This document shows, in pieces, positions 43,301 to 56,981 of a stretch of 64,000 nucleotides of DNA. The number at the start of each line of letters is the position of its first letter. The stretch's first letter is position 1. Source of the DNA: an uncultured Poribacteria bacterium (lineage in GTDB: Bacteria > Poribacteria > WGA-4E > WGA-3G); assembly GCA_951828385.1 (NCBI GenBank), contig OX639973.1, positions 5,990,845 to 6,054,844 of the forward strand, given 5' to 3'. A model generated the notes under the pieces. That model had not been told where the DNA came from. It searched no databases and saw nothing but the letters and a program-made list of their open reading frames with translations. A program made the position numbers and the translations under genes.

Positions 43301-46300
43301 TAACAAATGTACCTCGCGCGACATCGGGACCTCCCGGAATCAGGACAGATAGATTTAATCTACCGCGAACGCTCACCTCGCGAATTCAGCGATCCGCATT
43401 TCAGATGCAGGGCGGGCAGCAAACTCAGTGGATACCGACGGACTTTGATGAGGCACAAGCAGGCGCGCTCGTCCAGATAACAACTATCGCGCAACAGCAA
43501 CGAAAATTGGAGGCACTCATCAACCAGCTTGAAGCTCAAGCTGATGCCGATCCCAAAAATATAAAGGGCCTCGAAACGTTAGCGCAAATCTATATCTTAA
43601 CAGGAAATACCGACAAGACGAATGAAACACTTGAACGGCTAATTACCGCATCACCCAACGACCCTGTCTATCAAGGAACGCGCTTGACCCGATTAATGGG
43701 GCAAGGCATCAGTTATGAAACGCTGAAAAAATATCTTGATGAAATGACCGCTTTAGCCCCTGACGCACGGCTCTGGTATGTCGCACGATATGCAAGCGAC
43801 TTCTATCGGCAGGGACGCAAAGAAGATACCGAGAAGCTGGTCGTAGAACTTGTAGATGCAGAGGTGTCTGACCTCAATACTGGGGCAACGATTGTCAGTA
43901 CGCTCGCACGGATGGGGAAAACAGACGCTGCCGAGAAAGTCCTTACACAGATGCCAGTACCCGGGCTCTCAACGCCGCAACGTCAGTCAGTACAGAATAC
44001 GCAACCGCCAGCCATCGGTCAATTATCATCCGCATCGCAGCAATGGCATCGGTATCGGGATATTTATCAAAATCTCGCCACTGCTTATATTCGTGAGGGA
44101 CAGACTGACAAGGGTATTACGCTGTTCTGGTCCTTCTTTGAACGCACCAAACCGCAAGCGACAAACGCACGGCGCGTCGCAACCTTAGCTTATGCAAATC
44201 GATCTTACTCCGGCTACACATCGCTACAGACAAACTATCCAGCGCCGACGAGTTACTACAATCAAAATCGTTTACAGTTCCTCCAACGGGTTTTCAGCCA
44301 ATTGTGGTCCCGCGATCAACAGGAGGCACTCTACAAAAAATTGCAGGCTGAATTGGAGCGCGCGACAGGAAGAGACCGTATCTATCCGAGCTTGGCACTC
44401 AGTTATTGCTATTGGTGGGCAGGGCAGCGTGACGAGGCACAAGCGGTACTCGCCGCGCTTCAAAAGGAATTCCCTGAGGATCTCACCCTCAAACTAAACA
44501 CAATTTTTGCTTCTATCCAAGCTGGACAACACGCCGCGGCTTTCAAATTAATTACCGGACTCGCTGAGGCAGACCCGAGAAACCGCAAACAGTACCATGA
44601 ACTCACACTGCAGCTTGCCGTGCAGACAGGCGATACCGTTGCTGTACGCGAACTCGTGACGAAGGTACTCAATTCACCGAGTGGGGCGCGTGAACTTTAT
44701 CAATTCTCGCGAACGCTCCAACAGAACGGACTCACCCAATACGCAATCGCTATTGCCAAAAAAGCGATGACCCTGGCAACCGGTGAACGGGATCCGAACT
44801 TCCTTGTAGATTTAAGCCGACATTTGGATGACTTAGGACGAGGGCAGGATGCCGCACGGATCGCTGCGCGCGCAATGCAGTTCGTCAACCAGCGCGACCG
44901 ATACGGACGCACCTTGTATTCGTGGGACTTTCGACGCGCCGTACAGACCGCTGGGCGCGCAAAAGGATTGCGAGACCGCGAACCGCAGTTGGTGGCAGCT
45001 GTCCAGAAAGATCCTAATTCATTTCAGGCACAAGTCAGGTTGGCAACATTCTATGAACAGACGAATCAGGTGCAAAAGGCATCCGAAGCGTTTGACGCGG
45101 CACTTGCCCTGCGCCCTCAGGACAGTATGACACGACAGCGATACGCACAGATGTTACAGCGACGCGGCAAGGCAAAGGAAGCGGCAGCCCAATACTTGAT
45201 ACTCCTCAAGGAGAATCCGAGCGCACTCGGCTACAACTATTATCAGGTCATGGAGGTTTTCTTTACCGCTGGCAAAGTTGATGAACTCGTTTCGCTCGCG
45301 AAAGATATGATCGTCCCATCTGTCGGGATGGGTTATAGCAACTTTTTCGCAGAAGGCGTGGCACGTCAGTCCCTCGAAAACAATAACCCTAAAGCCGCAA
45401 TTGAACTCTACGAAAAAATTATTGCCGTGCAACCAAACGACATTTCTGCCTATACCGCATTGGCTTCCGCTTATGTCGCTGCAGGTGATCGTGAAAAGGC
45501 GATCCAGTTCCTACGCGAAAAATTGGACGTAAAAGACACAGCACTATCGCGATCCCCACACGTACAGGTGGATATTGTATCAAAACTCACTGAGTTCTAC
45601 AAAGCATCAGATCAGATAACGGAATTGCTAACCGAATATGAAGCAAAACTTGATGAGAAACCGGACGACGCGTTGCTAATCTATCTCGTCGCTTCTATGA
45701 AGATTGCAGCGGATGACCTTGAAGGCTCAGACGCACTCGTTGACAAACTCCTCGATGATTCAACACCTGTGGATACACACTGGTTAAACAATCTCGCCGA
45801 TGCTTACCGAGGCGCGAATGACAGAGATCGTGAACTGCGTTTGCTGGAGTCGGCAATCGCGAAAATCAATCATCAAGATACATGGCATCTGACAGAAACT
45901 TATCAAAAACTTGGCACGGTTTACGCCAAGAAGGGTGAGAAAGAGAAGGCGCAAAACACATTCCGTAAGATGGGGACGTTCCGTTTGCTCCAAGGGCGTG
46001 GTTCCTATGAGAAGCAACAAATCGCGAACACGTACATGCAACACGAAATGTGGACCGATGCTGAGGCACTCTTTACCGAAATCGTTAATGATTTCTCAGC
46101 GCAGCAGTGGGACCGGGAACAAGCACAACGACAGTTAATGCAAATCAAGCAGCGACGTGATGGGGTGGCGAAGACAACCCGTACGCCTGAAAAAATGGAG
46201 AAGTTTGATGTCGGGATGCAAAGAACGTTAGCACAGCAGTATGTTCAACAGAACGAGGTCAAAAAGGCGGTAGACATTTACGAGAAACTTGCAGAGGTGA

Positions 46301-49300
46301 TGCCCGAAGACCTTGAATCACGCGCACAACTCGCAGATCTCTATTCGCGTCAAAATAAGCACGATGAGGCAGTAGATACGTGGAAAGCCTTGCTTGACGT
46401 AGACCCGGAGAACACGAAGTATCAAGATGGACTCGTGGATGCCTACCAAGCGGCTGACAAAACCCCCGAAGCACTTGAACTCGCGCAGCAATACATCGAG
46501 GCGGAGACAGACAACGGTGTCCACTATGCGCGCCTTGCGAAACTTTATGCTGCCGAAGACCGCGTTGACGATGCCATTGAGGCATATAAAGAAGCCGTTG
46601 AACGTAATCCCGGTGATGGAAAGGTCTATCGTCAATTGGGACAATTGTATCTTCGTAAGGATGATCTGGATGCCGCAGAAAAAGCATTCGAGGATGCCAT
46701 CCAATACACAGGACAAGAGTTCGAGCGGCGAAGTATTGAACGGCAGCTCATGAGCGTTTACAAGCGCCAGGGCAAATTGGAAGATATGCTAAAGCAGGCG
46801 GAAGAGGCTGGCACGATAACCCTTGAGATGCAGCGAAACCGCGCACAAGACTACCGTAACGCCGGTGAATCTCAGAAAGCAATTGAGGCATATAAGAAAG
46901 CGTTGGATATGACCACGCAGAGTTATGAACGCGGTAACATTACCAACGAGCTACTGAAACTATACGTCCAAGTCGGCGATAACGATTTGGCGATAGAACT
47001 TTATGAAAACCAGTCTCAGACCGGCAGCCCGACGGGAAGTGTCTCTTTCAGTATGGGTGCGTCCGGTTTCAAAATTATGTCCGGTGGAGATGAAGCCCGC
47101 GAGACCCTGATTAATGCCTATAAAGATCAGGGGAAACTTGAAGAGTTAGAAACCATCTTTAAGGACAAACTTGAAAAGGACGCACAGAACCCAGCGGTGC
47201 TTGAAATGGTTGCTGAAATTTATCGGAATGCACGCGACTATGAAAAGGCTGCGGAAGCATATCAGGCACTCGGCAAAGCACAGCCGAGTAACCTCAACAG
47301 TTTTTTCTATGCTGCTGCCGCGCTCCAAAAAAGCAACCAACCCGATCTCGCAGAAGAGATGCTCAGTCAGGCTGAGGTCTCACTTTCAACCAATCCCCGC
47401 GCACAATTCGATATCTTTTTACTCATGACGCTCACATCCATCTGTGTTGAAGGGGAACTCTACGACTCGGCAATCAAACTCGCTGAGGACGCAATCGCTG
47501 TGAGCTCAAGGATGGGGGGCGGCATTTCTGGGTTGACGGAGTATCTATACGGTATGCTTGGGGAAAGCTACCTCGGTACAAAACGCTACGAAGAAGCCGT
47601 TGACGCATATAAACAGATGGGGAACCTCGCCAGATTTGACCCGATGCGAGAAATGGCAGAGAAGGGTATACGCCAAGCTTACACTGAAGGGAACCTTCAT
47701 GAAAAGCAGATTCCTGAGCAGTTACAGAAGATCAAGGAAAACCCTGATGATCTTGATGCACTCTTCGCGCTCGCTGAAAGCTACGAATTAAGCGATAAGG
47801 TTGACGAGGCAATCACACAATATCAAAAAATTAGTGAACTTCAACCTGATGATGCACAGTGGCACAAAAAAATTGGCGACCTCTATCAAAAGCAGCGGCA
47901 AACGGATGAGGTCGTTGAAGATACGGCACTCGACTTGGCTGGAAACAGGAGTTACGTGGAAATTGCCGATAGTGCCGCTTTGAACAATATCAGCCAACAA
48001 GTAACCGTGACCGCATGGATCAAACCGACCGAATACCCTAACAGGTATACCCCTATTCTTTACAAAGGGGACGAGCGGACACCCGAAATCAGCAATCGAA
48101 GTTACGCGCTCTGGCTACGGAACGATGGTCGGATTCAATTCGCTTCATCGCCAAGTGGTGAGGCAGAAAAATTCGCTTTTTCACCTCCAGGATCCATTAC
48201 GCTCAACAAGTGGCACCACGTCGCAGGTGTGGTTGATACTTCACAAAATATCGTAAAAATATATGTTGATGGTGTTATGGTAGGGAGCAACGACTTTAGA
48301 GGGAATCCAAACATTTATGAAAGCAGCCTGCCGGTCCGAATCGGCGGTTCTCATGAAGAAGAGTGGGTAACGCATGCCTCGTTCGTAGGGCAGATTGATA
48401 GCGTTTCTGTCTGGGATGTCGCACTAACAGCGGAGGAGATTCGTTCAAATATGAACGCTCGGTTGAAAGGAGATGAACCCGGCTTAGTCGGCTACTGGAA
48501 ATTCGATGAAGAAGTGGAAGGGAATGTCCCTGATGTGTCACCTAACAAAAGCAACGGTAAACTGGTCGCGGATGCTAAACTGGAGTCTTATACCCGTCAG
48601 ATCGTAACTGTGGCAGGCGCAGAACAGTTGACGCAGGCAGCGGTAGCATATCAAAAGGCTGTTCAACTTGAACCGACCTCTTATGAACTGTACAATCTGT
48701 TGGCACAGACCCACGAAAAAGCAGATCAATTGTCAGAAGCGGAGGCAGTGTATCGTCAGGCATTAGAGGCTTCGCTTGAAGATAGCGAACATGATGCCGT
48801 CATCCGGAGCATCTGGAAACTTTACGCCGACAAAGATCAGAAAGATAAAGGAATTGCCGTCCTTGAAGAATTAAGACCGAAAATAGGGACGAGTACTTCT
48901 TTACTTGAATTGTTAGGCGATGCATACAAAGCAGCAGGCGATGCTGAAAAAGCAGATGCAGTATACACCGAGTGGTTAGCGATTCGACAAAAAGAGGCAA
49001 ACCGACGACAAAGCCCTACGGGCTATCGCAGTCTTGCAAGGCAGATTCTTGACAAAGGCATCATGCCAGAAAAAGGATTGGAATTCGCTGAACGCGCATC
49101 GCAAATGGGGTCCGGGGCAAGTTACACGGAGACGTTGGCGCAGGCGTATGTCGCTAATGACCGGTATGAAGATGCATTAGCGCAGCTCAAACAACGCCTA
49201 AACACCATGGAACAGGAGGCGTTTGTACGCTGGTTAGCCGCATGGATTTCTCGAGCCGGTAAGAACGCTACCGACAAAGAACGTTACCTTGAGATGTTGG

Positions 49301-49935
49301 ATACCTTGGTGAATACCGCGCCTAACAATCTGACGGATGAGTTGGATATCAATCTTAAATTGGCGGAATTCTGCCATGAAAATGCTATGCCAGAGAAGGC
49401 GAAAACCTATGTTCAAAAAACAGGCGTTATCACTGAAGATAAGTGGTTAATTCTCGGTCCGTTTGACAATACCAAAGGTGTCGGTTACGACACAGCATAC
49501 ATCGCAGAAGATGCAACACAGATTGACACAACCGCAAAATACGATAGCTTAGACGGACAGATAAGTTGGCAAAAAAGCACCGATGATACACTGAACGGCT
49601 ATATTGATTTCGGACAGGATGTCAATTGGCGTGTCGCTTATGCGTTTGTAACTGTTACCTCACCTGATGAGCGCGAAGCACAAATCCGTTTTGATAGCGA
49701 TGACCAAGGGAAAGTATTTCTAAACGGCGAAGAGGTGTTCACAAATACCGGTGCCCATAGTGTCAGAATTGACCGTTATACGATTCCTGTAACCCTCAAG
49801 CCCGGCGAAAACAGTATCCTCGTCAAGGTCTGCAATGAGGAAGTCAAGTGGGAATTCTATCTACGGATTACCGACCCAGACGGAAAACCGTTCACAGACC
49901 TAAAAATTAGCAGTGCTGACCCTGAATCCGATTAG
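40387..49935 (+). CDS. giant (3182 aa) secreted/membrane-anchored TPR-repeat protein with an internal LamG domain and a C-terminal beta-sandwich domain
   Basis: N-terminal hydrophobic signal/anchor. Dozens of TPR-like units (A..Y.KAL.L.P....A...LA..Y). LamG block at about 47926-48525 (WHHVAGVVD...GQIDSVSVWDVALTAEEI). C-terminal jelly-roll-like block at about 49441-49935. Confidence 0.85.
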   Translation: MFRKEKCLIVACVLYLLSCTFYFPAITLAQDENVVERYKLMLSRNPKEGSTFDRLYQLYLEDAGLDAMVADYQAEAAAKPNDSNLQLILGHIHKRLGKDAETLAAYQRAVELAPNNYYPHFALGQMYATLRRHEDAIRELTKAAELSEETQAASPEELMTIYKALGRAYFSRDRVDEAISAWTKISELDPENIFSRIELADLFREQQLYEQAIAQHEAIIALKTDDPYRVCLSRREIGNIHEEKSDYEAAIQTYEAALALTAPGNWLRKDLQHRIIGIYAADGNWEGLITHYKEKLENTPNDPELIGLLAEAHIENQQLDEGIDAYQKALELAPTDTALRLNLIAALRTAEKFQEAAAAYESLSEQQPDDFGIYRELGELYLQLDDEDKAKATYQRMLARDPDNASTHLILAEIYANHEWIDDAVTAYQKAISLAPDNLDYIEYFGEFYFREGDRAKTLETWNQMVAGDKAAAENYDRLAKLLDSKARVLNSQTEAIAASRKAAELAPDVYRYREALAKRLVENKDYDEALTEYTEAAKLAPNEFFAEQMDNQRIEIFRRQGTLVEKIGALETALEKPDIAAADAFTQSKQLAKMYLKLGNTTYALEVLMKAKALESNDVVVNRWIAEVYTLQGRRDDANAIYTHLIEVDGANAREYYANIARAYLEVMDFAAATEAAKQAIAHSPRNPEGHQMLALIAKQAGNYQTAIDSFKQAIRLRPESTNIRSELAEIYKLSGNPRQALEQYWRCWELSGSISDKLAFVKPLSELYYDLGRRGELEEKLKQMSKTNTSDIGAVVALANLYQMEGDLPNARFQLARALDRRRDNPDLLAQLVKISLDLGDTQDALTYQQRLVKAQPNPMHRQRLGELLFDVGREQEAIQAWTKLLHTKNQPFDAEIKLATLLIQHGLLDEAISVLDRAAEKVTGPNAHIELYQLGDALVEMNEFDRARPLFQRVLDMPEPTQTATQNPITNVPRATSGPPGIRTDRFNLPRTLTSRIQRSAFQMQGGQQTQWIPTDFDEAQAGALVQITTIAQQQRKLEALINQLEAQADADPKNIKGLETLAQIYILTGNTDKTNETLERLITASPNDPVYQGTRLTRLMGQGISYETLKKYLDEMTALAPDARLWYVARYASDFYRQGRKEDTEKLVVELVDAEVSDLNTGATIVSTLARMGKTDAAEKVLTQMPVPGLSTPQRQSVQNTQPPAIGQLSSASQQWHRYRDIYQNLATAYIREGQTDKGITLFWSFFERTKPQATNARRVATLAYANRSYSGYTSLQTNYPAPTSYYNQNRLQFLQRVFSQLWSRDQQEALYKKLQAELERATGRDRIYPSLALSYCYWWAGQRDEAQAVLAALQKEFPEDLTLKLNTIFASIQAGQHAAAFKLITGLAEADPRNRKQYHELTLQLAVQTGDTVAVRELVTKVLNSPSGARELYQFSRTLQQNGLTQYAIAIAKKAMTLATGERDPNFLVDLSRHLDDLGRGQDAARIAARAMQFVNQRDRYGRTLYSWDFRRAVQTAGRAKGLRDREPQLVAAVQKDPNSFQAQVRLATFYEQTNQVQKASEAFDAALALRPQDSMTRQRYAQMLQRRGKAKEAAAQYLILLKENPSALGYNYYQVMEVFFTAGKVDELVSLAKDMIVPSVGMGYSNFFAEGVARQSLENNNPKAAIELYEKIIAVQPNDISAYTALASAYVAAGDREKAIQFLREKLDVKDTALSRSPHVQVDIVSKLTEFYKASDQITELLTEYEAKLDEKPDDALLIYLVASMKIAADDLEGSDALVDKLLDDSTPVDTHWLNNLADAYRGANDRDRELRLLESAIAKINHQDTWHLTETYQKLGTVYAKKGEKEKAQNTFRKMGTFRLLQGRGSYEKQQIANTYMQHEMWTDAEALFTEIVNDFSAQQWDREQAQRQLMQIKQRRDGVAKTTRTPEKMEKFDVGMQRTLAQQYVQQNEVKKAVDIYEKLAEVMPEDLESRAQLADLYSRQNKHDEAVDTWKALLDVDPENTKYQDGLVDAYQAADKTPEALELAQQYIEAETDNGVHYARLAKLYAAEDRVDDAIEAYKEAVERNPGDGKVYRQLGQLYLRKDDLDAAEKAFEDAIQYTGQEFERRSIERQLMSVYKRQGKLEDMLKQAEEAGTITLEMQRNRAQDYRNAGESQKAIEAYKKALDMTTQSYERGNITNELLKLYVQVGDNDLAIELYENQSQTGSPTGSVSFSMGASGFKIMSGGDEARETLINAYKDQGKLEELETIFKDKLEKDAQNPAVLEMVAEIYRNARDYEKAAEAYQALGKAQPSNLNSFFYAAAALQKSNQPDLAEEMLSQAEVSLSTNPRAQFDIFLLMTLTSICVEGELYDSAIKLAEDAIAVSSRMGGGISGLTEYLYGMLGESYLGTKRYEEAVDAYKQMGNLARFDPMREMAEKGIRQAYTEGNLHEKQIPEQLQKIKENPDDLDALFALAESYELSDKVDEAITQYQKISELQPDDAQWHKKIGDLYQKQRQTDEVVEDTALDLAGNRSYVEIADSAALNNISQQVTVTAWIKPTEYPNRYTPILYKGDERTPEISNRSYALWLRNDGRIQFASSPSGEAEKFAFSPPGSITLNKWHHVAGVVDTSQNIVKIYVDGVMVGSNDFRGNPNIYESSLPVRIGGSHEEEWVTHASFVGQIDSVSVWDVALTAEEIRSNMNARLKGDEPGLVGYWKFDEEVEGNVPDVSPNKSNGKLVADAKLESYTRQIVTVAGAEQLTQAAVAYQKAVQLEPTSYELYNLLAQTHEKADQLSEAEAVYRQALEASLEDSEHDAVIRSIWKLYADKDQKDKGIAVLEELRPKIGTSTSLLELLGDAYKAAGDAEKADAVYTEWLAIRQKEANRRQSPTGYRSLARQILDKGIMPEKGLEFAERASQMGSGASYTETLAQAYVANDRYEDALAQLKQRLNTMEQEAFVRWLAAWISRAGKNATDKERYLEMLDTLVNTAPNNLTDELDINLKLAEFCHENAMPEKAKTYVQKTGVITEDKWLILGPFDNTKGVGYDTAYIAEDATQIDTTAKYDSLDGQISWQKSTDDTLNGYIDFGQDVNWRVAYAFVTVTSPDEREAQIRFDSDDQGKVFLNGEEVFTNTGAHSVRIDRYTIPVTLKPGENSILVKVCNEEVKWEFYLRITDPDGKPFTDLKISSADPESD

Positions 49936-49956
49936 AACGACCTGTCCACCAAACTT

Positions 49957-50334
49957 GGTAGGTTCGGTTTTGCGGCGTACCATAGGTGTCAATTTACGAA
50001 AAAATAACCGCCTCGGTCCCAGATCCGGTAGGTTCGGTTTTGCGGTGTACACACCCAAATGCGACCTGCATTCCAACCGAACCGGATCCTACGCGGAATC
50101 GTTGAAGTCTTCAAAAACCTCTTGAGTCCCGTAGGGTTTATTTGCTTGGGGTGTTTTTGCTTGGGTATTTCTGCGTATTGATAGGGTATTTCTGCGGATT
50201 TCTTCACGGTTTCCTAACCGCACCAGACCCTCAACAAAAATGCGAAAAACCCATAATTCCTTAAAACTATAGTGAATCGTAAAAATAAAGAGACACTTCA
50301 TCCGCCGGTAGGTTCGGTTTCCTAACCGAACCGG
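49957..50334. repeat. repeat mosaic: truncated HP-B, E4 element (49982 to about 50270, degenerate right end), HP-B 50025-50084, SL3 with loop insertions, short-loop hairpins 50208-50232 and 50305-50334
   Basis: ATAGGTGTCAATTT lies at 49982-49995; the interior is collinear with E1/E2; CCGGTAGGTTCGGTTTCCTAACCGAACCGG lies at 50305-50334. Confidence 0.65.
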
Positions 50335-50466
50335 CACAGAGTGTCCTATTAATTCTAAACTTTACTATAAATAACCCTATGTTTATAGAGATTCCCGTTG
50401 ACGTTTTCGCATTGGATATGCTACTATAACTCAGAACTAAACGATGACGATTGTGGAGATGACAGA

Positions 50467-51762
50467 ATGAGCATTACCCAATTCACAATGGAAGAGGTCC
50501 GCTGTTTCAGCGAACGCCAGACGCTTGAAATTCGTCCGTTAACTTTTTTAGTCGGCGAAAACAGCACCGGCAAAACAACGGCATTGGCGTGTTTCCATGT
50601 ATTAGCAGATTATTTACGAGGCGAAGGAGTAGATTTTAATTCAGACCCCTATTCAATGGGAATTTTTAAGAATATTGTTAGAAACAGCAGACCAAAGAAG
50701 AAAGCTTTCAAGCTGGGATTTACTGCTAAATACAATAATGAAGATATTAAAAAAACAATTGAGTTCGTCGAAAAAAAAGCAAGCGTAGAACCTGTCGTTA
50801 ATTCGATAACAATGAAACTTGCTGATGGTGAAATTATTGTTCGATCTGAGGACGCAATGGGTAGGGAGTTCCGTTTAGATTCCTTTGATGAAGAACAGAA
50901 TCGATATAGGATAGCGTGTGATACTAAGAGATTGAACGAGTATTCTATTTTTTTCTTTTTCCCTCCTTTCACACGAGAATCTGAAGGTGAAATAGTTTTC
51001 AAAAAATATTTTAGTAAAAAGACTAAAAAATTGGAGTGCGGCCCGTGGGATACCTTTCGAGATATGTCTGTATTTAGTACATCGCCAGTCCGTTCACGCC
51101 CTAAACGAACTTATGATCCGACGAGGGAGTTTGATGATCCAGAAGGCAGCGATGTGCCTATGTATTTAATGCGGATTGAAGCAACCCAGAAAGATAATTG
51201 GGAGGTATTGCAACAACAATTAGTCGAATTTGGCAAAAGTTCCGGCTTATTTCAGAACATAGAAATAAAAAACCTTGGGGGTGCCTTCGGTGCTCCATTT
51301 CAATTACAATTCAAGGTGAGGGGACCTAAAGCAAATATCACTGATGTCGGCTATGGTGTCAGTCAAATTCTACCAATTTTGGTGCAAATTCTTAATCCTA
51401 ATATCTCTCAGGGTGATCCTGAATTATCAAGTTTTTCCTTATTACAACAACCTGAAATCCACTTACACCCGAGAGCACAAGCAGAATTTTCTTCTTTATT
51501 AGCTAAATTGGCTAACAAGGGTAATCAGTCATTCATCGTTGAAACGCACAGCGACTACATGATTGACCGCGCACGCATTGAGATCAGAAAAGGAAACATT
51601 CGTCCCGAAGATGTATCCCTAATATACTTTGAGCCAAAAGCAAATATCGTGAATGTGCATAATATTCATTTTGATAAGATGGGTAATATGGAAGGCGTAC
51701 CACCTCATTTTAGGGAATTTTTTCTAAAAGAGTCTGATCGGCTCATGGGGTTTGAGGATTAA
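50467..51762 (+). CDS. AAA/ABC-type ATPase, DUF3696-like C-terminus
   Basis: Walker A GENSTGKTT; DVGYGVSQILPILV; Walker B-like LLQQPEIHLHPRAQ; VETHSDYMI; C-terminal GVPPHFREFF (the FF motif recalled for DUF3696); ATG 50467 follows GGAGA. Confidence 0.7.
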   Translation: MSITQFTMEEVRCFSERQTLEIRPLTFLVGENSTGKTTALACFHVLADYLRGEGVDFNSDPYSMGIFKNIVRNSRPKKKAFKLGFTAKYNNEDIKKTIEFVEKKASVEPVVNSITMKLADGEIIVRSEDAMGREFRLDSFDEEQNRYRIACDTKRLNEYSIFFFFPPFTRESEGEIVFKKYFSKKTKKLECGPWDTFRDMSVFSTSPVRSRPKRTYDPTREFDDPEGSDVPMYLMRIEATQKDNWEVLQQQLVEFGKSSGLFQNIEIKNLGGAFGAPFQLQFKVRGPKANITDVGYGVSQILPILVQILNPNISQGDPELSSFSLLQQPEIHLHPRAQAEFSSLLAKLANKGNQSFIVETHSDYMIDRARIEIRKGNIRPEDVSLIYFEPKANIVNVHNIHFDKMGNMEGVPPHFREFFLKESDRLMGFED

Positions 51763-51765
51763 GTT

Positions 51766-52212
51766 ATGTGTGCTATTTTAGATACGAATACTTTTGGTAG
51801 ATTCAGGAACGAAGAGGATGAAAATCTAGAACCCGTGAGGAAGTGGTTGCGGAGAAAAAATGGTAGAATCGTTTATTCTAATACAGAGAAATATAAAAAT
51901 GAATGGAAAAGAGGGGGAATGGAAGACTGGATAAAAGAACGAGGCCGAGCCGGTCAATACCGGCTAATATCTGAAGGCGTACAAGAAAAAGAAAATGAAC
52001 TAAAGGGAAAAATAAAATCCGATGATGAACACATCATTGCTTTGGCTCTGGTGGCCCAGGTAAAGATATTGGTTTCCTACTCCGATTACGAAAGCAGCCA
52101 GACAGGCGACCAAGATTTGTTTGACGATTTTAGGGATAAGAATTTGGTTGGGGGCAAAGTGTATACAAAAAAATCACATGAGCGTATGCTGAAAAAAGAT
52201 ACCTGTCCTTAA
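51766..52212 (+). CDS. PIN-like nuclease domain protein
   Basis: 148 aa; AILDTNTF at the N-terminus; SDDEHIIALALVAQVKILVSYSD matches the PIN D..hhA.A....hhT.D layout; starts 3 nt after the ATPase stop. Confidence 0.5.
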   Translation: MCAILDTNTFGRFRNEEDENLEPVRKWLRRKNGRIVYSNTEKYKNEWKRGGMEDWIKERGRAGQYRLISEGVQEKENELKGKIKSDDEHIIALALVAQVKILVSYSDYESSQTGDQDLFDDFRDKNLVGGKVYTKKSHERMLKKDTCP

Positions 52213-52256
52213 AACGACGTAGCGCGAGGTATAGAAACCCCGCACTACCGCATCAC

Positions 52257-53936
52257 TCACCTTGACGAAGGCATCCACGTCCGCGGCGCAATCCCTTCCA
52301 CGTGCGTTTTCACATCCACAACCGCTGGTTTACCCGAAGCAAACGCCTGATCCAACGCACCCGCAAGTTCACTCGGTGTGTTCACAGTAATCCCGAAACA
52401 CCCCATCGACTCCGCCATCTTCGCGAAATCCGCATCCGGGAACAGCCAGAGTTCATCAGAACCAGACGTCCGACCCCCATAAACCGACTCAACACCACCC
52501 TGCTCCTGATTCAACGAGTGATTATTATTCACAACGATAACAGCGTTAATCCCGCACTTCATCGCCGTATCCAGTTCCGTCATGTGATACCAGATACCGC
52601 CATCGCCTGTGAAGCACAGCACCGGTCTATCGGGTTGCGCGCACTTCGCACCCATCGCCGCGGGGACACCCCATCCCAGCGAACCGGAACACCGTATGAA
52701 ACTCTGATCCGGATGTTTAAAATCGATCATCGTGCCAGTCCAGATACCTGAATGTCCCGTATCGGATACGAGGATCGTATCTGACGGAAGATAATCTGTG
52801 AGTTCACGACAGAGGCGTTCCGGTAGCATCGGCAACCGCTCCGAATTCACTTTCTCGTTAACGCTCTCTTTCCAATTCTGCACTAATTCCTGCACACGGC
52901 TAACCCATTCGGTGCGTTCGAATGTAGTCTCTGCCGCTGCAAGCATCCGACGCAGTGTATTCCGCACATCTCCCTGCATCCCTAACGCAATCGGATAATT
53001 CCGTCCAAGTTCATCAGGATTAATATCGAGTTGTATAATCGGCGTGCCTTGTGGCGGGATTTTATACCCGTTGGTCACCTGGCCGCCGGTATGGCTTCCG
53101 ATAAAGAAAACGAGATCCGCCTCACAAACCGCTTGGTTCGCACACGCCCGCGAGTATGAGCCGGGAGTCCCGACTGCTAACGGGTGGTCACTCGGAAACA
53201 TCGCCTTCGCATTCAAAGAGGTCGCTACCGGAATCGAGAGTTTTTCTGCCAGTGCTACGAGTTCTGATCGTGCGTCCGAAGCCGTTACACCGCCACCCGC
53301 CACAACAATAGGGCGTTCCGCTTCGCTCAGGAGTTTGATAGCCTCTGCTATTTTTTCCGCTTCCGCCTCTGGTCGGAACGGTGGCAATTGCGCAAATGCG
53401 TCCTCAATGATAACCTCAAGTTCGCCTTCGCGATCAATAACCGATGACCCTGCAATACCTTCAAAGTCGAGGTGAGCAGGGCCCGGTGTCCCCGTTGTCA
53501 CGGAACGGAAGGCTTGACGTAGATAGAAGGGAAGCTGCTCTGGTGTCGCAACGTAGGCACTATATTTCGTAACAGCAGAAAACGGGTTAACGTGATCCAC
53601 CTCTTGATAGGCGTGCCGTTGTTGATTAATCTGGTTTTCTTTGCCAGTCAGTGCAACCACCGGCGAACAGGCGAGATAAGCGTCTTGTAACCCCGCTGCA
53701 AGGTTAACCGCGCCCACCGATTGTGCCATACACAGACCCGGCGCGCGGTTCACGCGAGCGTAGGCATCCGCCATGTACGCCGCCGCTTTCTCACCGTGCG
53801 TCTGAACCCGCTTAATCCCAAGATTTTCCATCTCCATCAGCGCGCGCGGTCCGATATACGGCATAAAAAAGACGTGCGTAATCCCATAACCGTGAACAGT
53901 TTCAGCAATAAATCGAGCACCCGTCATTTTCGGCAT
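52257..53936 (-). CDS. thiamine-pyrophosphate-dependent enzyme (acetolactate synthase large-subunit-like)
   Basis: N-terminal Pyr domain (GITHVFFMPYIGP...HGEKAAAYMADAYAR) and TPP motif GDGGIWYHMTELDTAMKCGINAVIVVNNN. Confidence 0.85.
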   Translation of the reverse strand: MPKMTGARFIAETVHGYGITHVFFMPYIGPRALMEMENLGIKRVQTHGEKAAAYMADAYARVNRAPGLCMAQSVGAVNLAAGLQDAYLACSPVVALTGKENQINQQRHAYQEVDHVNPFSAVTKYSAYVATPEQLPFYLRQAFRSVTTGTPGPAHLDFEGIAGSSVIDREGELEVIIEDAFAQLPPFRPEAEAEKIAEAIKLLSEAERPIVVAGGGVTASDARSELVALAEKLSIPVATSLNAKAMFPSDHPLAVGTPGSYSRACANQAVCEADLVFFIGSHTGGQVTNGYKIPPQGTPIIQLDINPDELGRNYPIALGMQGDVRNTLRRMLAAAETTFERTEWVSRVQELVQNWKESVNEKVNSERLPMLPERLCRELTDYLPSDTILVSDTGHSGIWTGTMIDFKHPDQSFIRCSGSLGWGVPAAMGAKCAQPDRPVLCFTGDGGIWYHMTELDTAMKCGINAVIVVNNNHSLNQEQGGVESVYGGRTSGSDELWLFPDADFAKMAESMGCFGITVNTPSELAGALDQAFASGKPAVVDVKTHVEGIAPRTWMPSSR

Positions 53937-55234: not shown

Positions 55235-56077
55235 ATGAAAAATCTAATCTATCTCTTTACATTCACGCTAATTATCACCATGTTTCTCCAAAACGGATAT
55301 ACCGAACCCGTCGTGACAGACGGACTCGTCAGCTATTGGACGTTTGACCAACAAGACATTGCTGGCGGTACAGTCAAAGATGTCTGGGGTGAGAATGATG
55401 GGAAGATCGTCGGGGATCCAAAAGTTGTTGATGGACAGGTCGGAGAAGCACTTGAATTTGACGGCTCTGACGACTATGTGAACTTGACGAACCTCGGTGA
55501 TTTTGGCGAAAAGGTCGGTGCGTCTACGTTTGAAGCATGGGTCAAGACCAGTTTCAAAAAAGACTGGACAACCCTTTTCAAAGTCCTTGACCAAGGCTGC
55601 AATATGGCGTGGGCGATCGATGTCAACCGGAGTGCGAAAGCCGGATTCCCGCTTGCTGAGGACATCGTTCACTACTACGTCCGGCAGAAATCGGCGGCAG
55701 GCTGCAACGCTATCGCTGTTGAGATTGAGTTCCCACTGTCTGATGGGAAATGGCACCACATCGTTTTCGGAATTGTAGACCCGGGTGAGTCCGAGGTCAG
55801 CATCTATATGGACGGTGAGCCACAAGAGATTATCGTCGGCGATGCCAAGAAACTTGACACCTTTATTCCGTTTGTAGAACCCGTCTATATCGGCGCAGCA
55901 AACAATCGCGGCAACGTCGAGCGGCATTTCCCCGGTCTCATTGATGAAGTCCGCATTTACGACCGACCCCTCACTGCTGACGAAGTAACCCGAAATTTTG
56001 AATCCAAAATAGGCTTGTCCGTTGAAGCAGCCGAGAAGTTACCTATCGTCTGGGGTAAATTGAAGACAGAATTATAA
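55235..56077 (+). CDS. secreted LamG domain protein (tandem paralog 1)
   Basis: Signal peptide; GLVSYWTFD...GQVGEALEFDG.DDYVNLTNLGDFG...WHHIVF...IDEVRIYDRPLTADEV. Confidence 0.85.
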   Translation: MKNLIYLFTFTLIITMFLQNGYTEPVVTDGLVSYWTFDQQDIAGGTVKDVWGENDGKIVGDPKVVDGQVGEALEFDGSDDYVNLTNLGDFGEKVGASTFEAWVKTSFKKDWTTLFKVLDQGCNMAWAIDVNRSAKAGFPLAEDIVHYYVRQKSAAGCNAIAVEIEFPLSDGKWHHIVFGIVDPGESEVSIYMDGEPQEIIVGDAKKLDTFIPFVEPVYIGAANNRGNVERHFPGLIDEVRIYDRPLTADEVTRNFESKIGLSVEAAEKLPIVWGKLKTEL

Positions 56078-56138
56078 GTGTCTCTTGTGTAGGCGGGACT
56101 TACTGGGTGACTTTCGCACACCTAAAGGAGCGATTGTT

Positions 56139-56981
56139 ATGAAAAGCCTAATCTATCTGCTCGCAATCACGCTAATTATTACTATGTCTTTTCAAAATGG
56201 GTATACACAACCCATCGTAACAGAAGGACTCGTCAGTTATTGGACGTTTGATGAAAAGGACATTGCTGGCTTTACAGTTAAAGATGTCTGGGGTGAAAAT
56301 GACGCCAGAATCGTCGGAGACCCGAAAATCGTTGATGGGCAAGTCGGAGAAGCACTCGAATTTGACGGTGCTAACGACTACGTGAACTTGACGAACCTCG
56401 GCGATTTTGGAGAGAAAATCGGAACATCTACATTTGAGGTTTGGACAAAAACCAGTTTTAAAAATGACTGGACAACCCTTTTCAAAGTCCTTGACCAAGG
56501 GTGTAACATGGCATGGGCAATTGAGCCTAACCGGAGCGCATTAGCGGGATTCCCGTTTGCTGAAGGGGTCATTCATTTCTATGTCCGTCAAAAATCGGCG
56601 GCAGGCTGCAACGCTATCCCCGTTGAAATTGAATTTCCGATTTCCGATGGGCAATGGCACCATATCGTTTTCGCAATCGAGGACGCTGGTAAAGCCGAAG
56701 TCAGCATTTATATGGACGGTGAGCCACAAGAGGTTATCGCCGGCGACGTAAAGGAACTCGACAATTTTGTTCCATTTGTGGAACCCATCTTTATCGGTGC
56801 GGGGAATAATCGCGGTGCCGTCAGCCGGAATTTCCCCGGTATCATTGATGAAGTCCGCATTTATGATCGACCCCTAACCGCTCGCGAAGTAACCCGAAAC
56901 TTTAAATCGAAAATCGGGCTGTCCGTTCAGGCCGCCGAGAAGCTGCCGATTGTCTGGAGCAACTTGAAGACACAACGATAG
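56139..56981 (+). CDS. secreted LamG domain protein (tandem paralog 2)
   Basis: Collinear with paralog 1; ATG 56139 follows AAGGAG. Confidence 0.85.
   Translation: MKSLIYLLAITLIITMSFQNGYTQPIVTEGLVSYWTFDEKDIAGFTVKDVWGENDARIVGDPKIVDGQVGEALEFDGANDYVNLTNLGDFGEKIGTSTFEVWTKTSFKNDWTTLFKVLDQGCNMAWAIEPNRSALAGFPFAEGVIHFYVRQKSAAGCNAIPVEIEFPISDGQWHHIVFAIEDAGKAEVSIYMDGEPQEVIAGDVKELDNFVPFVEPIFIGAGNNRGAVSRNFPGIIDEVRIYDRPLTAREVTRNFKSKIGLSVQAAEKLPIVWSNLKTQR

What the first reader, a model, noticed from the sequence alone, without database searches (positions are those of the whole stretch)
50467..52212. DUF3696-type AAA ATPase + PIN-like nuclease gene pair: candidate undescribed defence / abortive-infection module
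Two co-directional genes are separated by only 3 nt (stop 51760-51762, ATG 51766). The 431-aa ATPase has Walker A GENSTGKTT, LLQQPEIHLHP, VETHSD and a C-terminal ...HFREFF tail. The 148-aa partner has the acidic-residue layout of a PIN fold: ILDTN at residue 6, then DDEHIIALALVAQVKILVSYSD. By eye the pair is more A/T-rich than the flanking TPR and TPP genes. It sits directly after a 530-bp repeat mosaic (49936-50466) and is convergent with the next gene 44 nt away. An ATPase sensor plus a small nuclease effector is the logic of Septu (ATPase+HNH), PARIS (ATPase+Toprim) and Gabija. I do not know a named system that pairs this ATPase type with a PIN effector.
Basis: partly seen in the sequence, partly recalled or inferred. 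Interest (0 to 1): 0.72.

Follow-up and report, generated by a model that had tools for sequence, protein, structure and literature searches.

The report
ATPase plus PIN nuclease defence pair
This is a real two-gene operon, an ABC-type ATPase followed by a small PIN nuclease, that is very probably an anti-phage (abortive-infection) module of a sponge-symbiont bacterium; the design is already known and tested (HEC-03, and the core of Menshen), but this branch is not covered by the defence-gene catalogue version I could search.

Summary
Two co-directional ORFs (50467-51762, 431 aa; 51766-52212, 148 aa) lie 3 nt apart, and their GC is 0.39 against about 0.47-0.49 in the flanks.

Gene A is an ABC ATPase of the DUF3696-tailed clade. 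Its best PADLOC hits are NsnB (4.5e-43) and PDC-M55A.

Gene B is a true PIN domain:
- The AF2 model has pLDDT 89.
- The top 18 Foldseek PDB hits are all PIN proteins.
- 67 of 115 relatives hit Pfam PIN.
- The D6-E46-D87-D115 acidic set is conserved across the family.

The pair is strictly syntenic in all 80 related loci first collected, which are Poribacteria, Caldilineaceae and three MAGs labelled Latescibacterota. It is also syntenic in 5 of 5 distant relatives sampled. Both genes are under purifying selection, yet they diverge far faster than the neighbouring gene and show a recombinant mosaic. The pair is always lower in GC than its flanks.

HEC-03 (Payne et al. 2024) is a DUF3696-type ABC ATPase plus a VapC-like PIN, in the same gene order, and both genes are needed for phage defence. 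Menshen's NsnB-NsnC core is also related.

This pair fails the HEC-03 PIN model and has no NsnA or NsnC. I therefore read it as a divergent, uncatalogued variant of a known kind. The defence function is inferred, not shown.

The parts
50398..50427 (+). Promoter-like site (TTGACG, 18-nt spacer, TACTAT, with an extended TG) about 40 nt upstream of the ATPase start. A GGAGA Shine-Dalgarno lies at 50455-50459.
   Evidence: Consensus scan. The number of such sites in the region is not above the shuffle expectation, so this rests on position only. Sequence read.
50467..51762 (+). Gene A: a 431-aa ABC ATPase of the DUF3696-tailed (NsnB / HEC-03 ATPase / PDC-M55A) clade.
   Evidence: Pfam AAA_15 1.1e-21, AAA_21 1.2e-17. 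PADLOC NsnB 4.5e-43, PDC-M55A 2.3e-42, HEC-03 ATPase model 1.5e-24. BLASTP to the validated HEC-03 ATPase gives 28% identity over 192 aa, E 2e-16. 5622 homologues.
50554..50577 (+). Walker A / P-loop, G30-ENSTG-K36-T37.
   Evidence: 98% mean identity over residues 21-40 in 61 family members.
50707..51066 (+). Hypervariable region of the ATPase (residues 81-200). It occupies the position of ABC Insert-1 and is the candidate sensor surface.
   Evidence: Identity to the window sequence is 36-59% here, against 67-98% in most other 20-residue blocks. Mean pairwise distance is 0.61 against 0.22-0.28 elsewhere. It has the highest dN/dS, 0.39. The sensor role is inferred.
51439..51471 (+). Walker B region, L325-LQQPEIHLHP335. 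The canonical D-E dyad reads Q-Q in every aligned member of this family. The signature-like G295-Y-G297 is at 51349-51357, R209 replaces the Q-loop Gln, and the H-loop H361 is at 51547-51549.
   Evidence: Alignment. HEC-03 has E-Q at these positions. NsnB is reported to have E-N, R for Q, and GxG for SGG (PMC12065111).
51604..51759 (+). C-terminal alpha-helical tail (residues 380-431), homologous to DUF3696. It is the likely docking site for the PIN protein.
   Evidence: The PADLOC NsnB model is matched through to its end. Tails of distant family members hit Pfam DUF3696; L086 scores 26.0 bits against a cut-off of 22. Tail distances track PIN distances best, r = 0.55. The docking role is taken from AF3 models of NsnB-NsnC in PMC12065111 and is inferred here.
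51754..51768 (+). Coupling junction: GAGGA Shine-Dalgarno inside the end of gene A, TAA stop, 3 nt, then the ATG of gene B.
   Evidence: Sequence read. In most of the related loci the PIN start sits about 6-7 nt after the last ATPase codon, i.e. a stop codon plus about 3 nt.
51766..52212 (+). Gene B: a 148-aa stand-alone PIN-domain nuclease, VapC-like in fold. Acidic residues are D6 (51781-51783), E46 (51901-51903), D87 (52024-52026), D115 (52108-52110) and D121 (52126-52128). Conserved cysteines are C2 (51769-51771) and C147 (52204-52206).
   Evidence: AF2 with a 115-sequence alignment: pLDDT 89.4, pTM 0.85. The top 18 Foldseek PDB hits are all PIN proteins, probability up to 0.96, E 0.009-0.16, TM 0.38-0.54. 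67 of 115 relatives hit Pfam PF01850, best 3.9e-11. C2, D6, D87 and D115 are invariant; E46, D121 and C147 are at least 90% conserved.
52219..52248 (.). 12-bp GC-rich hairpin in the 44-nt gap between the convergent PIN and TPP-enzyme genes. It is a terminator-like element.
   Evidence: It was reported on the minus strand, and a T-run is present on that side only. Sequence read.

Best explanation
The locus is a bicistronic, translationally coupled operon that encodes a two-component anti-phage / abortive-infection module. It has the same design as HEC-03 and as the NsnB-NsnC core of Menshen.

Shown:
- Gene A is an ABC ATPase of the DUF3696-tailed clade.
- Gene B is a stand-alone PIN domain with an intact D-E-D-D acidic set.
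- The two genes are always adjacent in this order.
- Both are under purifying selection, yet they evolve far faster than the neighbouring housekeeping gene, and the PIN gene is exchanged by recombination.
- The module is always lower in GC than its host DNA, and in some genomes it sits among known defence genes.

Inferred mechanism, by analogy with structural work on PARIS and Septu as summarised in the Menshen paper, and with AF3 models of NsnB-NsnC:
1. The ATPase forms dimers or tetramers.
2. Its C-terminal DUF3696 tails clamp the PIN protein and keep it inactive.
3. The hypervariable insert (residues 81-200) recognises a phage-derived trigger.
4. ATP binding, or slow hydrolysis given that the Walker B dyad is Q-Q, then changes the complex so that the PIN nuclease is released or activated.
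5. The PIN cuts RNA. tRNA, rRNA or mRNA are all possible, as for VapC-type PINs.
6. Translation stops, and with it phage replication, at the cost of arresting the infected cell.
For: Architecture and homology:
- Pfam and PADLOC assignments of gene A.
- 28% identity, E 2e-16, to the experimentally validated HEC-03 ATPase WP_025259138.1, which is annotated 'DUF3696 domain-containing protein'.
- Shared unusual ATPase motifs: R in place of the Q-loop Gln, a GxG signature, and an amide at the catalytic-Glu position.

PIN assignment:
- AF2 model, pLDDT 89.
- Foldseek top hits are all PIN proteins.
- 67 of 115 relatives hit Pfam PIN.
- Family-wide invariant D6, D87 and D115, with E46 at least 90% conserved.

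Synteny:
- The ATPase lies directly upstream in all 80 related loci first collected, covering 71 species representatives.
- The same holds in 5 of 5 sampled distant members.
- The PIN family has 1060 clusters at 50% identity with E<=1e-3, nearly all 130-160 aa.

Defence-like evolution:
- At the same chromosomal site in 29 species, the TPP neighbour is 91-96% identical, the ATPase 61-96% and the PIN 46-91%.
- Between the window and L022, dS is 0.1-0.2 in the ATPase but 1.34 in the PIN, which indicates a recombinant allele.
- dN/dS is 0.08-0.39, so both genes are functional.
- The pair's GC is below that of its flanks in 79 of 79 loci.

Defence context elsewhere:
- L083/L084: a Type III-like restriction gene, PD-T4-4 A and B (3e-94 and 4e-13), a methyltransferase, AAA_21 plus DUF4276, and SLFN_AlbA_2.
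- L009: a trypsin-like protease and a CAP12-PCTIR TIR protein.

Functional precedent: in HEC-03 both genes are required for defence, and the system is toxic when induced.
Against: - No experiment bears on this family. Defence is inferred from relatives and from evolutionary pattern.
- In this window the pair is solo. None of 10 neighbouring proteins hits a PADLOC model at a meaningful level.
- In many Poribacteria the pair occupies one fixed chromosomal site, which could also fit a resident non-defence function.
- The PIN is only remotely similar to the HEC-03 PIN: hhalign probability 54%, 41 aligned columns.
- Foldseek E-values are weak, 0.009-0.16 for the PIN hits.
- The ATPase-PIN contact, the trigger, the role of ATP and the RNA target are all untested. 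The Q-Q Walker B could mean the ATPase does not hydrolyse ATP at all.
- No copies were found on phages, viral contigs or plasmids.
Confidence: 0.72

Rival explanations
1. A toxin-antitoxin / addiction cassette with no role against phages. The PIN is a VapC-like toxin, the ATPase acts as an unconventional antitoxin or chaperone, and the cassette persists selfishly or stabilises its chromosomal region.
For: VapC-like fold. Tight bicistronic coupling. Low GC and recombinant, mosaic evolution. Decayed copies in some genomes (L024, L077, L079, L073). HEC-03 was toxic when induced. In the window the pair has no defence neighbours.
Against: The gene order, with the large partner first and the toxin second, and a 431-aa ABC ATPase do not resemble VapB antitoxins. 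The HEC-03 authors make the same point. The homologous HEC-03 pair does protect against phages. The ATPase has a hypervariable insert typical of a sensor. The family was not found on plasmids, where addiction modules are common. TA function and defence are not mutually exclusive.
Confidence: 0.12
2. A decayed remnant of a three-gene Menshen system. NsnA has been lost and NsnC has been cut down to its N-terminal PIN-like domain, so the locus no longer functions as a system.
For: The best PADLOC hit of the ATPase is NsnB, 4.5e-43, over the full model. NsnC starts with a PIN-like domain that is predicted to bind the NsnB DUF3696 tails. The Menshen paper notes sporadic loss of domains.
Against: The PIN protein is a fixed 130-160-aa stand-alone family with 1060 clusters. 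Its catalytic acids are conserved, whereas all 35 NsnC inPIN families lack them. dN/dS is 0.17, which indicates selection for function. No DUF262 gene appears among the neighbours listed for any looked-up locus or in the window. No member hits an NsnC model.
Confidence: 0.04
3. A housekeeping RNA-processing or nucleic-acid repair pair of Poribacteria, for example a RecF/SMC-like ATPase with an accessory nuclease, kept at a fixed chromosomal site.
For: Present in about 60 Poribacteria species representatives, often at the same site beside the TPP-enzyme gene. Under purifying selection. Weak RecF/SMC_N hits at the ATPase N-terminus.
Against: The pair diverges far faster than the adjacent gene and out of step with it: the TPP-PIN identity correlation is 0.00. 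It shows recombinant alleles, pseudogenised copies and a persistent GC deficit. Its distribution across phyla is patchy: Poribacteria, Caldilineaceae and a Cellvibrionales MAG. All its closest annotated relatives are defence ATPases.
Confidence: 0.05

Closest known systems
HEC-03 (Hma-embedded candidate 03; Payne, Hughes, Fineran and Jackson, bioRxiv 10.1101/2024.01.29.577857). Type example: Pseudomonas cichorii ATCC 10857, WP_025259138.1 plus WP_025259137.1.
   Same: A two-gene operon in the same order: an ABC ATPase annotated 'DUF3696 domain-containing protein', then a small (157 aa) VapC-like PIN protein. The ATPases are homologous: 28% identity, E 2e-16. They share the DVGxGVSQxLP, QPEIHLHP and E(S/T)HS(D/E) motifs. 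Both genes are needed for defence.
   Different: The window ATPase matches the HEC-03 ATPase model only partially, 85 bits over residues 241-415, whereas a true member scores 445 bits. The window PIN and 114 of 115 relatives do not hit the HEC-03 PIN model. The profile comparison gives only 54% probability over 41 columns. The first acidic residue is D here (ILDTN) but E in HEC-03 (VVETN). The Walker B dyad is Q-Q here and E-Q there. HEC-03 genes overlap; these are 3 nt apart. Plasmid HEC-03 copies are followed by an RNA ligase gene, which is absent here.
Menshen (NsnABC; Millman et al. 2022; domain analysis in Li et al. 2025, PMC12065111)
   Same: The ATPase is NsnB-like: best PADLOC hit, full model length, the same DUF3696 tail and the same motif peculiarities. 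The downstream partner begins with, and here consists entirely of, a PIN-fold domain. In NsnC that domain is predicted to dock between two DUF3696 tails.
   Different: There is no NsnA (ParB-DUF262 sensor). The partner has no C-terminal toxin domain. The PIN keeps its catalytic acids, whereas the NsnC PINs are all inactive. Sensing would therefore fall to the ATPase, and killing to the PIN itself.
PARIS (AriA/AriB) and Septu (PtuA/PtuB)
   Same: An ABC ATPase of the AAA_15/AAA_21 type followed by a small nuclease. ATPase oligomers sequester or regulate the nuclease. PARIS releases a Toprim RNase that cuts tRNA. The window ATPase hits AriA at 4.9e-25 and PtuA at 4e-10.
   Different: The effector fold is PIN, not Toprim/DUF4435 or HNH. 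The ATPase carries a DUF3696 tail and belongs to a different branch. No AriB or PtuB model is hit.
PDC-M55 (PADLOC phage-defence candidate, untested)
   Same: PDC-M55A scores almost as well as NsnB on the ATPase, 2.3e-42 over the full length.
   Different: PDC-M55 is a three-gene cassette. Its B component, found for example as a 352-aa protein on a Bacillus pacificus plasmid (2.5e-26), is not a relative of this PIN family by HMM.
VapBC type II toxin-antitoxin systems
   Same: The best structural matches of gene B are VapC and FitB PIN toxins. It has the same D-E-D-D layout.
   Different: There is no VapB-type antitoxin gene. The upstream partner is a 431-aa ABC ATPase. The family also carries invariant C2 and near-invariant C147, which as far as I know are not VapC features.

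Membership tests
PIN domain superfamily | Rossmann-like alpha/beta/alpha fold with a parallel beta-sheet, matching solved PIN structures | tested here: met
   AF2 model: pLDDT 89.4, pTM 0.85. Foldseek PDB ranks 1-18 are all PIN proteins (VapC, FitB, PcrIIC1), probability up to 0.96, TM 0.38-0.54, E 0.009-0.16. 67 of 115 relatives hit PF01850, best 3.9e-11. The window protein itself scores only E 0.045.
PIN domain superfamily | Four conserved acidic residues (D-E-D-D) at the ends of beta1, in the helix after beta2, at the N-cap of the helix before beta4, and after beta4 | tested here: met
   D6, D87 and D115 are invariant and E46 is at least 90% conserved in 115 sequences at 31-82% identity. 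Their positions relative to the predicted secondary structure fit the canonical layout.
HEC-03 | Two-gene operon: an ABC ATPase followed by a PIN-domain protein | tested here: met
   The gene order of the type example comes from supplementary table 2.
HEC-03 | ATPase belongs to the HEC-03 ATPase family (PADLOC model PDLC04148, which the database names 'HEC-03B') | tested here: inconclusive
   The window scores 84.9 bits, E 1.5e-24, over residues 241-415 only. A bona fide member scores 444.6 bits over the full length. BLASTP to the validated protein gives 28% identity over 192 aa. The proteins are homologous, but the window scores better against NsnB and PDC-M55A.
HEC-03 | PIN protein belongs to the HEC-03 PIN family (PADLOC model PDLC04147, which the database names 'HEC-03A') | tested here: not met
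   No hit for the window protein. Only 1 of 115 relatives hits, at 6e-4. The positive controls score 9.4e-86 and 3.1e-23. hhalign gives 54% probability over 41 columns.
HEC-03 | Both genes required for phage defence | not testable with these tools
   Shown for the Pseudomonas cichorii system in E. coli. No experiment exists for this family.
Menshen (NsnABC) | NsnA gene (ParB-DUF262 plus ParBDB) directly upstream of the ATPase | tested here: not met
   In the window, the upstream gene is a 3182-aa TPR/Laminin_G_3 protein. No DUF262 is listed among the neighbours of the pair in L001-L009, L081-L086, L090 or L091.
Menshen (NsnABC) | NsnB: an ABC ATPase with a DUF3696 tail and the motif changes Q-loop to R, SGG to GxG, and Walker B DE to E-N | tested here: met
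   NsnB model 4.5e-43, matched over positions 2-343 of 345. R209 and G295-Y-G297 are present; the Walker B dyad is Q-Q rather than E-N (description). DUF3696 is hit in relatives, not in the window protein.
Menshen (NsnABC) | NsnC: an N-terminal inactive PIN-like domain fused to a C-terminal nuclease/toxin domain | tested here: not met
   The partner is 148 aa, a PIN domain only, with catalytic acids retained. No NsnC model is hit.
PDC-M55 | Three-gene cassette A >> B >> C with PDC-M55B downstream of the ATPase | tested here: not met
   The A model is hit at 2.3e-42, but no member of the PIN family hits PDC-M55B, and the next gene in the window is a convergent TPP enzyme.
PARIS | AriA ATPase plus AriB (DUF4435 / Toprim) effector | tested here: not met
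   AriA models are hit only weakly, 4.9e-25 and partial. There is no Toprim or DUF4435 partner, and the partner is a PIN.
VapBC toxin-antitoxin | A small VapB antitoxin gene (AbrB, RHH, PhD or MerR DNA-binding domain) immediately upstream of the PIN toxin | tested here: not met
   The upstream gene is the 431-aa ABC ATPase, 3 nt away. The same holds in every related locus examined.

The most novel reading that the evidence does not exclude
This is the founding example of a distinct, uncatalogued type of ABC-ATPase/PIN immune system. It is a large family: 1060 clusters at 50% identity, all annotated 'hypothetical'. In it a DUF3696-tailed ATPase with a non-canonical Q-Q Walker B acts as both sensor and switch, without a separate sensor such as NsnA. 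It controls a catalytically active PIN that has its own hallmark, the conserved Cys2 and Cys147, which could form a metal or redox site. Under this reading it would represent the 'ancestral-like' state from which Menshen's inactive-PIN adaptor evolved. It would also be the main hypervariable, recombining immune locus of sponge symbionts (Poribacteria, Caldilineaceae), with trigger and target specificities different from HEC-03.
Probability: 0.4. Interest if true: 0.55.

Novelty: new variant of a known kind. Interest (0 to 1): 0.4.

Why it matters
If the inference holds, a family of at least about 1000 protein clusters now labelled 'hypothetical protein' gains an assignment. PADLOC-DB v2.0.0, the version searchable here, would not call this module.

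The pair also links two described systems. It has the ATPase of Menshen and the effector logic of HEC-03, and its PIN domain is still catalytic. It is therefore a natural test case for how a nuclease effector (an active PIN) became a mere adaptor (Menshen's inactive PIN).

For sponge-symbiont biology, the pair marks a fixed chromosomal site in Poribacteria where alleles differ by up to about 50% between species whose neighbouring gene is more than 91% identical. That makes it a convenient marker of phage-driven diversification in an uncultured phylum.

The practical payoff is modest. The architecture and its defence role are already published, so this extends rather than changes the picture.

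Tried and rejected
1. Direct sequence search of the PIN against PDB, with the single sequence and with the 115-sequence profile. It returned only chance hits (ferritin, eL39) and VapC at E 0.66. The PIN assignment therefore rests on fold search and on Pfam hits of relatives.

2. The first AF2 model, built from 29 close homologues, was mediocre (pLDDT 77). I replaced it with the 115-sequence model.

3. PDC-M55 as the identity of the pair. Rejected: it is a three-gene cassette whose B protein is unrelated.

4. PDC-M11A gave weak hits in 8 of 115 relatives, best 1.9e-5. I did not pursue this; it is probably another PIN-containing candidate.

5. The upstream 'repeat mosaic' as part of the system. 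Rejected: the core motif GGTAGGTTCGGTT occurs 7 times in the window at unrelated intergenic sites, and at varied positions in related genomes.

6. Phage, plasmid or viral carriage of the PIN family. No matches were found in PLSDB, INPHARED or IMG/VR at the sensitivity used. The scan with the diverse alignment could not be run because it has no sufficiently conserved stretch.

7. Positive selection. Pairwise dN/dS never exceeded 1 in any region, so the fast divergence is not shown to be adaptive by this crude test.

8. Co-variation between the ATPase tail and the PIN. The tail correlates best with PIN distances (r 0.55, against 0.38-0.51 for other regions), but the difference is small and confounded by shared ancestry. 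I treat it as weak support only.

9. The Krishnan et al. 2020 ABC-ATPase classification paper could not be read because it is not held in the library. An earlier description of ABC-ATPase plus PIN neighbourhoods there cannot be excluded.

10. Rfam and tRNA scans of the window found nothing.
Full report
**1. Observation**

The six-frame ORF list shows two co-directional ORFs on the + strand.
- ORF A runs 50467-51762. The ATG-started form is 431 aa. The listed ORF begins at an upstream TTG at 50398.
- ORF B runs 51766-52212 and is 148 aa.

The junction reads GAGGA-T-TAA-GTT-ATG. A Shine-Dalgarno sequence sits inside the end of A, and the gap is 3 nt, which is the arrangement expected for translational coupling.

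All homologues start at the equivalent of MSITQF. TTGACG at 50398 is the -35 hexamer of a promoter-like site placed about 40 nt before the ATG. The 431-aa form is therefore the likely product.

GC of the pair is 0.391, against 0.468 upstream, 0.488 downstream and 0.478 for the whole window. The next gene, a thiamine-pyrophosphate enzyme at 52257-53936 on the minus strand, is convergent. Its 44-nt gap contains a 12-bp GC-rich hairpin.

**2. Gene A**

Pfam gives AAA_15 (1.1e-21), AAA_21 (1.2e-17) and AAA_23. These models cover the ABC-type 'OLD-ABC' ATPases.

Against PADLOC-DB the best hits are:
- NsnB of Menshen: 4.5e-43, matching model positions 2-343 of 345
- PDC-M55A: 2.3e-42
- AriA: 4.9e-25
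- the HEC-03 ATPase model: 1.5e-24
- OLD, PtuA and GajA, all weaker

No NCBIfam model comes near its cut-off. The only PDB sequence match is the C-terminal half of an OLD-family nuclease.

Pfam's DUF3696 model does not hit the window protein. It does hit the C-terminal tails of more distant members of the same ATPase-PIN family; L086 scores 26.0 bits against a cut-off of 22, and L083 and L081 fall just below. PGAP annotates plasmid relatives as 'DUF3696 domain-containing protein'.

The alignment shows these features:
- Walker A, G30ENSTGKT37
- an Arg (R209) where ABC ATPases have the Q-loop Gln
- a G295-Y-G297 signature
- LLQQPEIHLHP, with Q-Q in every aligned member of this family where the Walker B D-E dyad should be
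- the H-loop His361
- a conserved 50-residue tail

The Menshen paper describes the same three oddities for NsnB: R for Q, GxG for SGG, and an amide at the catalytic-Glu position (E-N there). HEC-03 has E-Q.

**3. Gene B**

On its own, the window protein gives only a sub-threshold PIN hit (E 0.045, residues 4-38). It has no PADLOC, NCBIfam or PDB sequence match.

A word-indexed search found 242 close homologues, all unannotated and mostly from Candidatus Poribacteria. An exhaustive profile search of 1.84 billion cluster representatives found 1060 clusters at E<=1e-3 and 260 at E<=1e-10. Nearly all are 130-160 aa and match end to end.

In an alignment of 115 members (31-82% identical to the window protein):
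- C2, D6, D87 and D115 are invariant.
- M1, I4, W27, E46, S85, H89, L93, A94, L102, L118, D121, F122, G130, Y133, L142 and C147 are at least 90% conserved.

Of those 115 members, 67 hit Pfam PF01850 (PIN), best 3.9e-11. A few hit PIN_3 or DUF4411.

AlphaFold2 with this alignment gives pLDDT 89.4 and pTM 0.85. Foldseek against the PDB places PIN proteins at ranks 1-18 (VapC, FitB, the Cas9-associated PcrIIC1). Probability reaches 0.96, TM is 0.38-0.54 and E-values are weak, 0.009-0.16.

The conserved acids sit where the canonical PIN D-E-D-D residues sit:
- D6 at the end of beta1
- E46 in the helix after beta2
- D87 at the N-cap of the helix before beta4
- D115 just after beta4, displaced in the Poribacteria proteins by a short insertion

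Gene B is therefore a stand-alone PIN nuclease that is very probably catalytically active.

**4. Linkage**

A scan of one genome per GTDB species found 71 loci. Nearly all are Candidatus Poribacteria. Five are Caldilineaceae (Chloroflexota) and three are MAGs labelled Latescibacterota. The closest is Poribacteria WGA-3G, with the ATPase 96% and the PIN 91% identical, so the window comes from a sponge-symbiont poribacterium.

In all 80 loci held at that point, the ATPase lies directly upstream of the PIN. In most of them the spacing is the same few nucleotides as in the window. In several loci one or both genes are fragmentary:
- ATPase: L024, L077, L079
- PIN: L073, L077, L078, L079, L080

Five distant PIN family members (profile E 2e-27 to 2.5e-14), chosen across the ranking, also have a 434-447-aa AAA_15/AAA_21 ATPase immediately upstream. 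In one of the five, the ATPase is truncated. One of these comes from a Cellvibrionales MAG. The two-gene unit therefore defines the family.

**5. Evolutionary behaviour**

In 29 species the pair sits at the same chromosomal site beside the TPP-enzyme gene. Identity to the window is as follows:

| Gene | Identity range | Mean |
|---|---|---|
| TPP enzyme | 91-96% | 93% |
| ATPase | 61-96% | 74% |
| PIN | 46-91% | 59% |

PIN identity is uncorrelated with TPP identity (r = 0.00).

Within the ATPase, residues 81-200 are the most variable. This stretch occupies the position of ABC Insert-1. Mean pairwise distance there is 0.61, against 0.22-0.28 elsewhere.

Pairwise dN/dS is below 1 everywhere, so both genes are maintained by selection:

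| Region | dN/dS |
|---|---|
| ATPase residues 1-80 | 0.08 |
| ATPase residues 81-200 (insert) | 0.39 |
| ATPase residues 201-431 | 0.11 |
| PIN | 0.17 |

Between the window and L022, synonymous divergence is 0.1-0.2 across the ATPase but 1.34 in the PIN. The PIN allele has been swapped by recombination.

The pair's GC is lower than its flanks in 79 of 79 loci, by 7 points on average. This includes the Caldilineaceae, where the pair is 0.47-0.50 against 0.60-0.63 in the flanks.

**6. Context**

In this window the pair is solo. Ten neighbouring proteins give no meaningful PADLOC hit. The neighbours are a 3182-aa TPR/Laminin_G_3 protein, a TPP enzyme and Laminin_G_3 paralogues.

Elsewhere the context is more telling. 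In the Cellvibrionales MAG (L083/L084) the pair lies between a Type III-like restriction gene and a PD-T4-4 system (A 3e-94, B 4e-13) on one side. On the other side are a large N6/N4 methyltransferase, an AAA_21 plus DUF4276 pair and a Schlafen/AlbA_2 protein. In L009 it is followed by a trypsin-like protease and a CAP12-PCTIR TIR protein. L081 has an AAA_21 plus DUF4276 pair nearby.

These are anecdotes, not statistics.

**7. Comparison with what is known**

Two published systems bear directly on this pair.

(a) HEC-03. Payne et al. (bioRxiv 10.1101/2024.01.29.577857) found three kinds of ABC ATPase embedded in Hma systems, paired with Toprim, NERD or PIN proteins. HEC-03 is the ATPase-PIN pair. 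Both genes were needed for defence in E. coli, and the system was toxic when induced. Supplementary table 2 gives the tested example: Pseudomonas cichorii WP_025259138.1, annotated 'DUF3696 domain-containing protein', followed by and overlapping WP_025259137.1, a 157-aa PIN.

The window pair compares with it as follows:
- The window ATPase aligns to the HEC-03 ATPase at 28% identity over its C-terminal 192 residues, E 2e-16.
- The PIN family profile aligns to the HEC-03 PIN only over the third and fourth acidic motifs: 41 columns, 54% probability.
- As controls, the validated PIN scores 9.4e-86 on PADLOC model PDLC04147. An Aeromonas plasmid pair scores 1e-133 and 3e-23 on the two HEC-03 models.
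- The window proteins score 1.5e-24 (partial) and nothing.

In PADLOC-DB v2.0.0 the A and B names of HEC-03 are reversed relative to the preprint text.

(b) Menshen. Li et al. (PMC12065111) describe three components:
- NsnA is a ParB-DUF262 sensor.
- NsnB is an ABC ATPase with a DUF3696 tail.
- NsnC is an inactive PIN-like domain fused to a C-terminal nuclease.

AF3 models in that paper place the PIN-like domain clamped between the DUF3696 tails of an NsnB dimer. Here there is no NsnA, the partner is a PIN domain only, and the PIN is not inactive.

PDC-M55, whose A model also scores well, is a three-gene cassette with an unrelated B protein.

The pair is therefore a relative of HEC-03 and of the NsnB-NsnC core. 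It is a member of neither by the available models.

**8. Mechanism**

Shown: the domain identities, the intact active-site residues, the obligate linkage, purifying selection, modular recombination and a hypervariable ATPase insert.

Inferred by analogy with PARIS and Septu (structural work as summarised in the Menshen paper), Menshen (AF3 models) and HEC-03 (genetics):
- The ATPase oligomer holds the PIN through its tails and keeps it silent.
- The variable insert detects a phage product.
- Nucleotide binding, or slow hydrolysis, switches the complex and frees or activates the PIN.
- The PIN cleaves RNA and arrests the infected cell.

Tail distances track PIN distances slightly better than other ATPase regions do (r 0.55 against 0.38-0.51). 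This is weak support for a tail-PIN contact.

The Q-Q Walker B, seen in every aligned member of this family, suggests an ATP-gated switch rather than a motor, but that is speculation. The conserved C2 and C147 have no explanation yet.

**9. Rivals**

- A pure toxin-antitoxin or addiction role is possible and is not exclusive of defence. I give it about 0.12.
- A decayed Menshen remnant is unlikely, given a fixed-size family of more than 1000 clusters with conserved catalytic residues and dN/dS of 0.17.
- A housekeeping role is unlikely, given the GC deficit, the recombinant alleles, the pseudogenised copies and the patchy phyletic spread.

**10. Verdict**

The novelty claim must be lowered. 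The ATPase-PIN design with this ATPase type is published and validated as HEC-03, and it is related to Menshen.

What remains new is the branch:
- a distinct, large, unannotated PIN family with its own conserved cysteines
- an ATPase sub-clade with a Q-Q Walker B
- dominance in sponge symbionts, where it forms a hypervariable locus

I rate it a new variant of a known kind, interest 0.4. My confidence in the defence-module reading is about 0.72.

Noticed in passing
window 49957-50340; also 1093, 1774-1786, 3673, 24217: A dispersed REP-like palindromic element with core CCGGTAGGTTCGGTTTCCTAACCGAACCGG. A longer variant, CCGGTAGGTTCGGTTTTGCGGTGTACACACCCAAATGCGA, is shared by the copies at 3673 and 50027. 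There are 7 copies in the window against 0.04 expected by chance. It also occurs at varied intergenic positions in related Poribacteria loci. This is the 'repeat mosaic' upstream of the pair, and it is not specific to the pair.
   Followed up: partly
window 40387-49935 (+): A giant 3182-aa protein made almost entirely of TPR repeats, with an embedded Laminin_G_3 domain at residues 2519-2685. At least two stand-alone Laminin_G_3 paralogues follow downstream (55235-56077 and 56085-56981). It looks like the eukaryote-like repeat proteins reported for sponge symbionts.
   Followed up: partly
PADLOC-DB v2.0.0 models PDLC04147 and PDLC04148: The A and B names of HEC-03 are swapped between the database and the preprint. 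The database's 'HEC-03A' is the PIN model: the validated PIN scores 9.4e-86 on it. The database's 'HEC-03B' is the ATPase model. The preprint calls the ATPase HEC-03A.
   Followed up: yes
L087 3947-6565 (Azotobacter chroococcum plasmid pAcX50e); L088 3368-5996 (Aeromonas salmonicida pAsa9-like plasmid): On the Aeromonas plasmid (L088), a bona fide HEC-03 pair (PADLOC 1e-133 and 3e-23) is followed directly by an 'RNA ligase family protein' gene. The Azotobacter plasmid (L087) has the same annotated arrangement, though I did not run the PADLOC check on it. The ligase could be a third component or an RNA-repair partner of the PIN nuclease. No such gene follows the pair in the window.
   Followed up: no
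L083/L084 1-12414 (Cellvibrionales MAG, GCA_014323765.1): A dense defence island surrounds a distant copy of the pair. It contains a ResIII/RE_endonuc gene, PD-T4-4 A and B, a 1022-aa N6_N4 methyltransferase, AAA_21 plus DUF4276, and SLFN_AlbA_2.
   Followed up: partly
L009/L016 6473-8471: In one Poribacteria genome the TPP-enzyme neighbour is replaced by a trypsin-like protease gene and a convergent CAP12-PCTIR TIR-domain gene directly after the pair. The site therefore behaves as a variable, possibly defence-collecting, spot.
   Followed up: no
L022 6697-8429 compared with window 50467-52212: A sharp recombination boundary lies at the ATPase/PIN junction. ATPase dS is 0.1-0.2 (93% aa identity), whereas PIN dS is 1.34 (62% aa identity). 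Against L010, the ATPase insert has dS 0.03 while the rest has 0.22, so the ATPase itself is mosaic.
   Followed up: partly
L024, L077, L079 (ATPase); L073, L077, L078, L079, L080 (PIN): In several Poribacteria genomes one or both genes of the pair match only in part, as fragments or truncated stretches. This suggests recurrent loss of function, although L078 ends at the locus boundary and none of these copies was examined in detail.
   Followed up: no
window 51769-51771 and 52204-52206 (PIN residues C2 and C147): Cys2, directly after the start Met, is invariant, and Cys147, the penultimate residue in the motif D-T-C-P, is conserved in at least 90% of sequences. This holds across a family that is otherwise only about 26% identical per column on average. 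H89 is also at least 90% conserved (H138 is invariant only among the closer relatives). Together they might form a metal or disulfide site tying the two termini. I know of no such feature in VapC-type PINs.
   Followed up: no
window 33831-36464 (-): An 878-aa protein has a partial PADLOC hit to HEAT-ARM_XIII (2.4e-15, about 90 residues of a 1972-position model). It is probably generic HEAT-repeat similarity rather than a defence gene.
   Followed up: no
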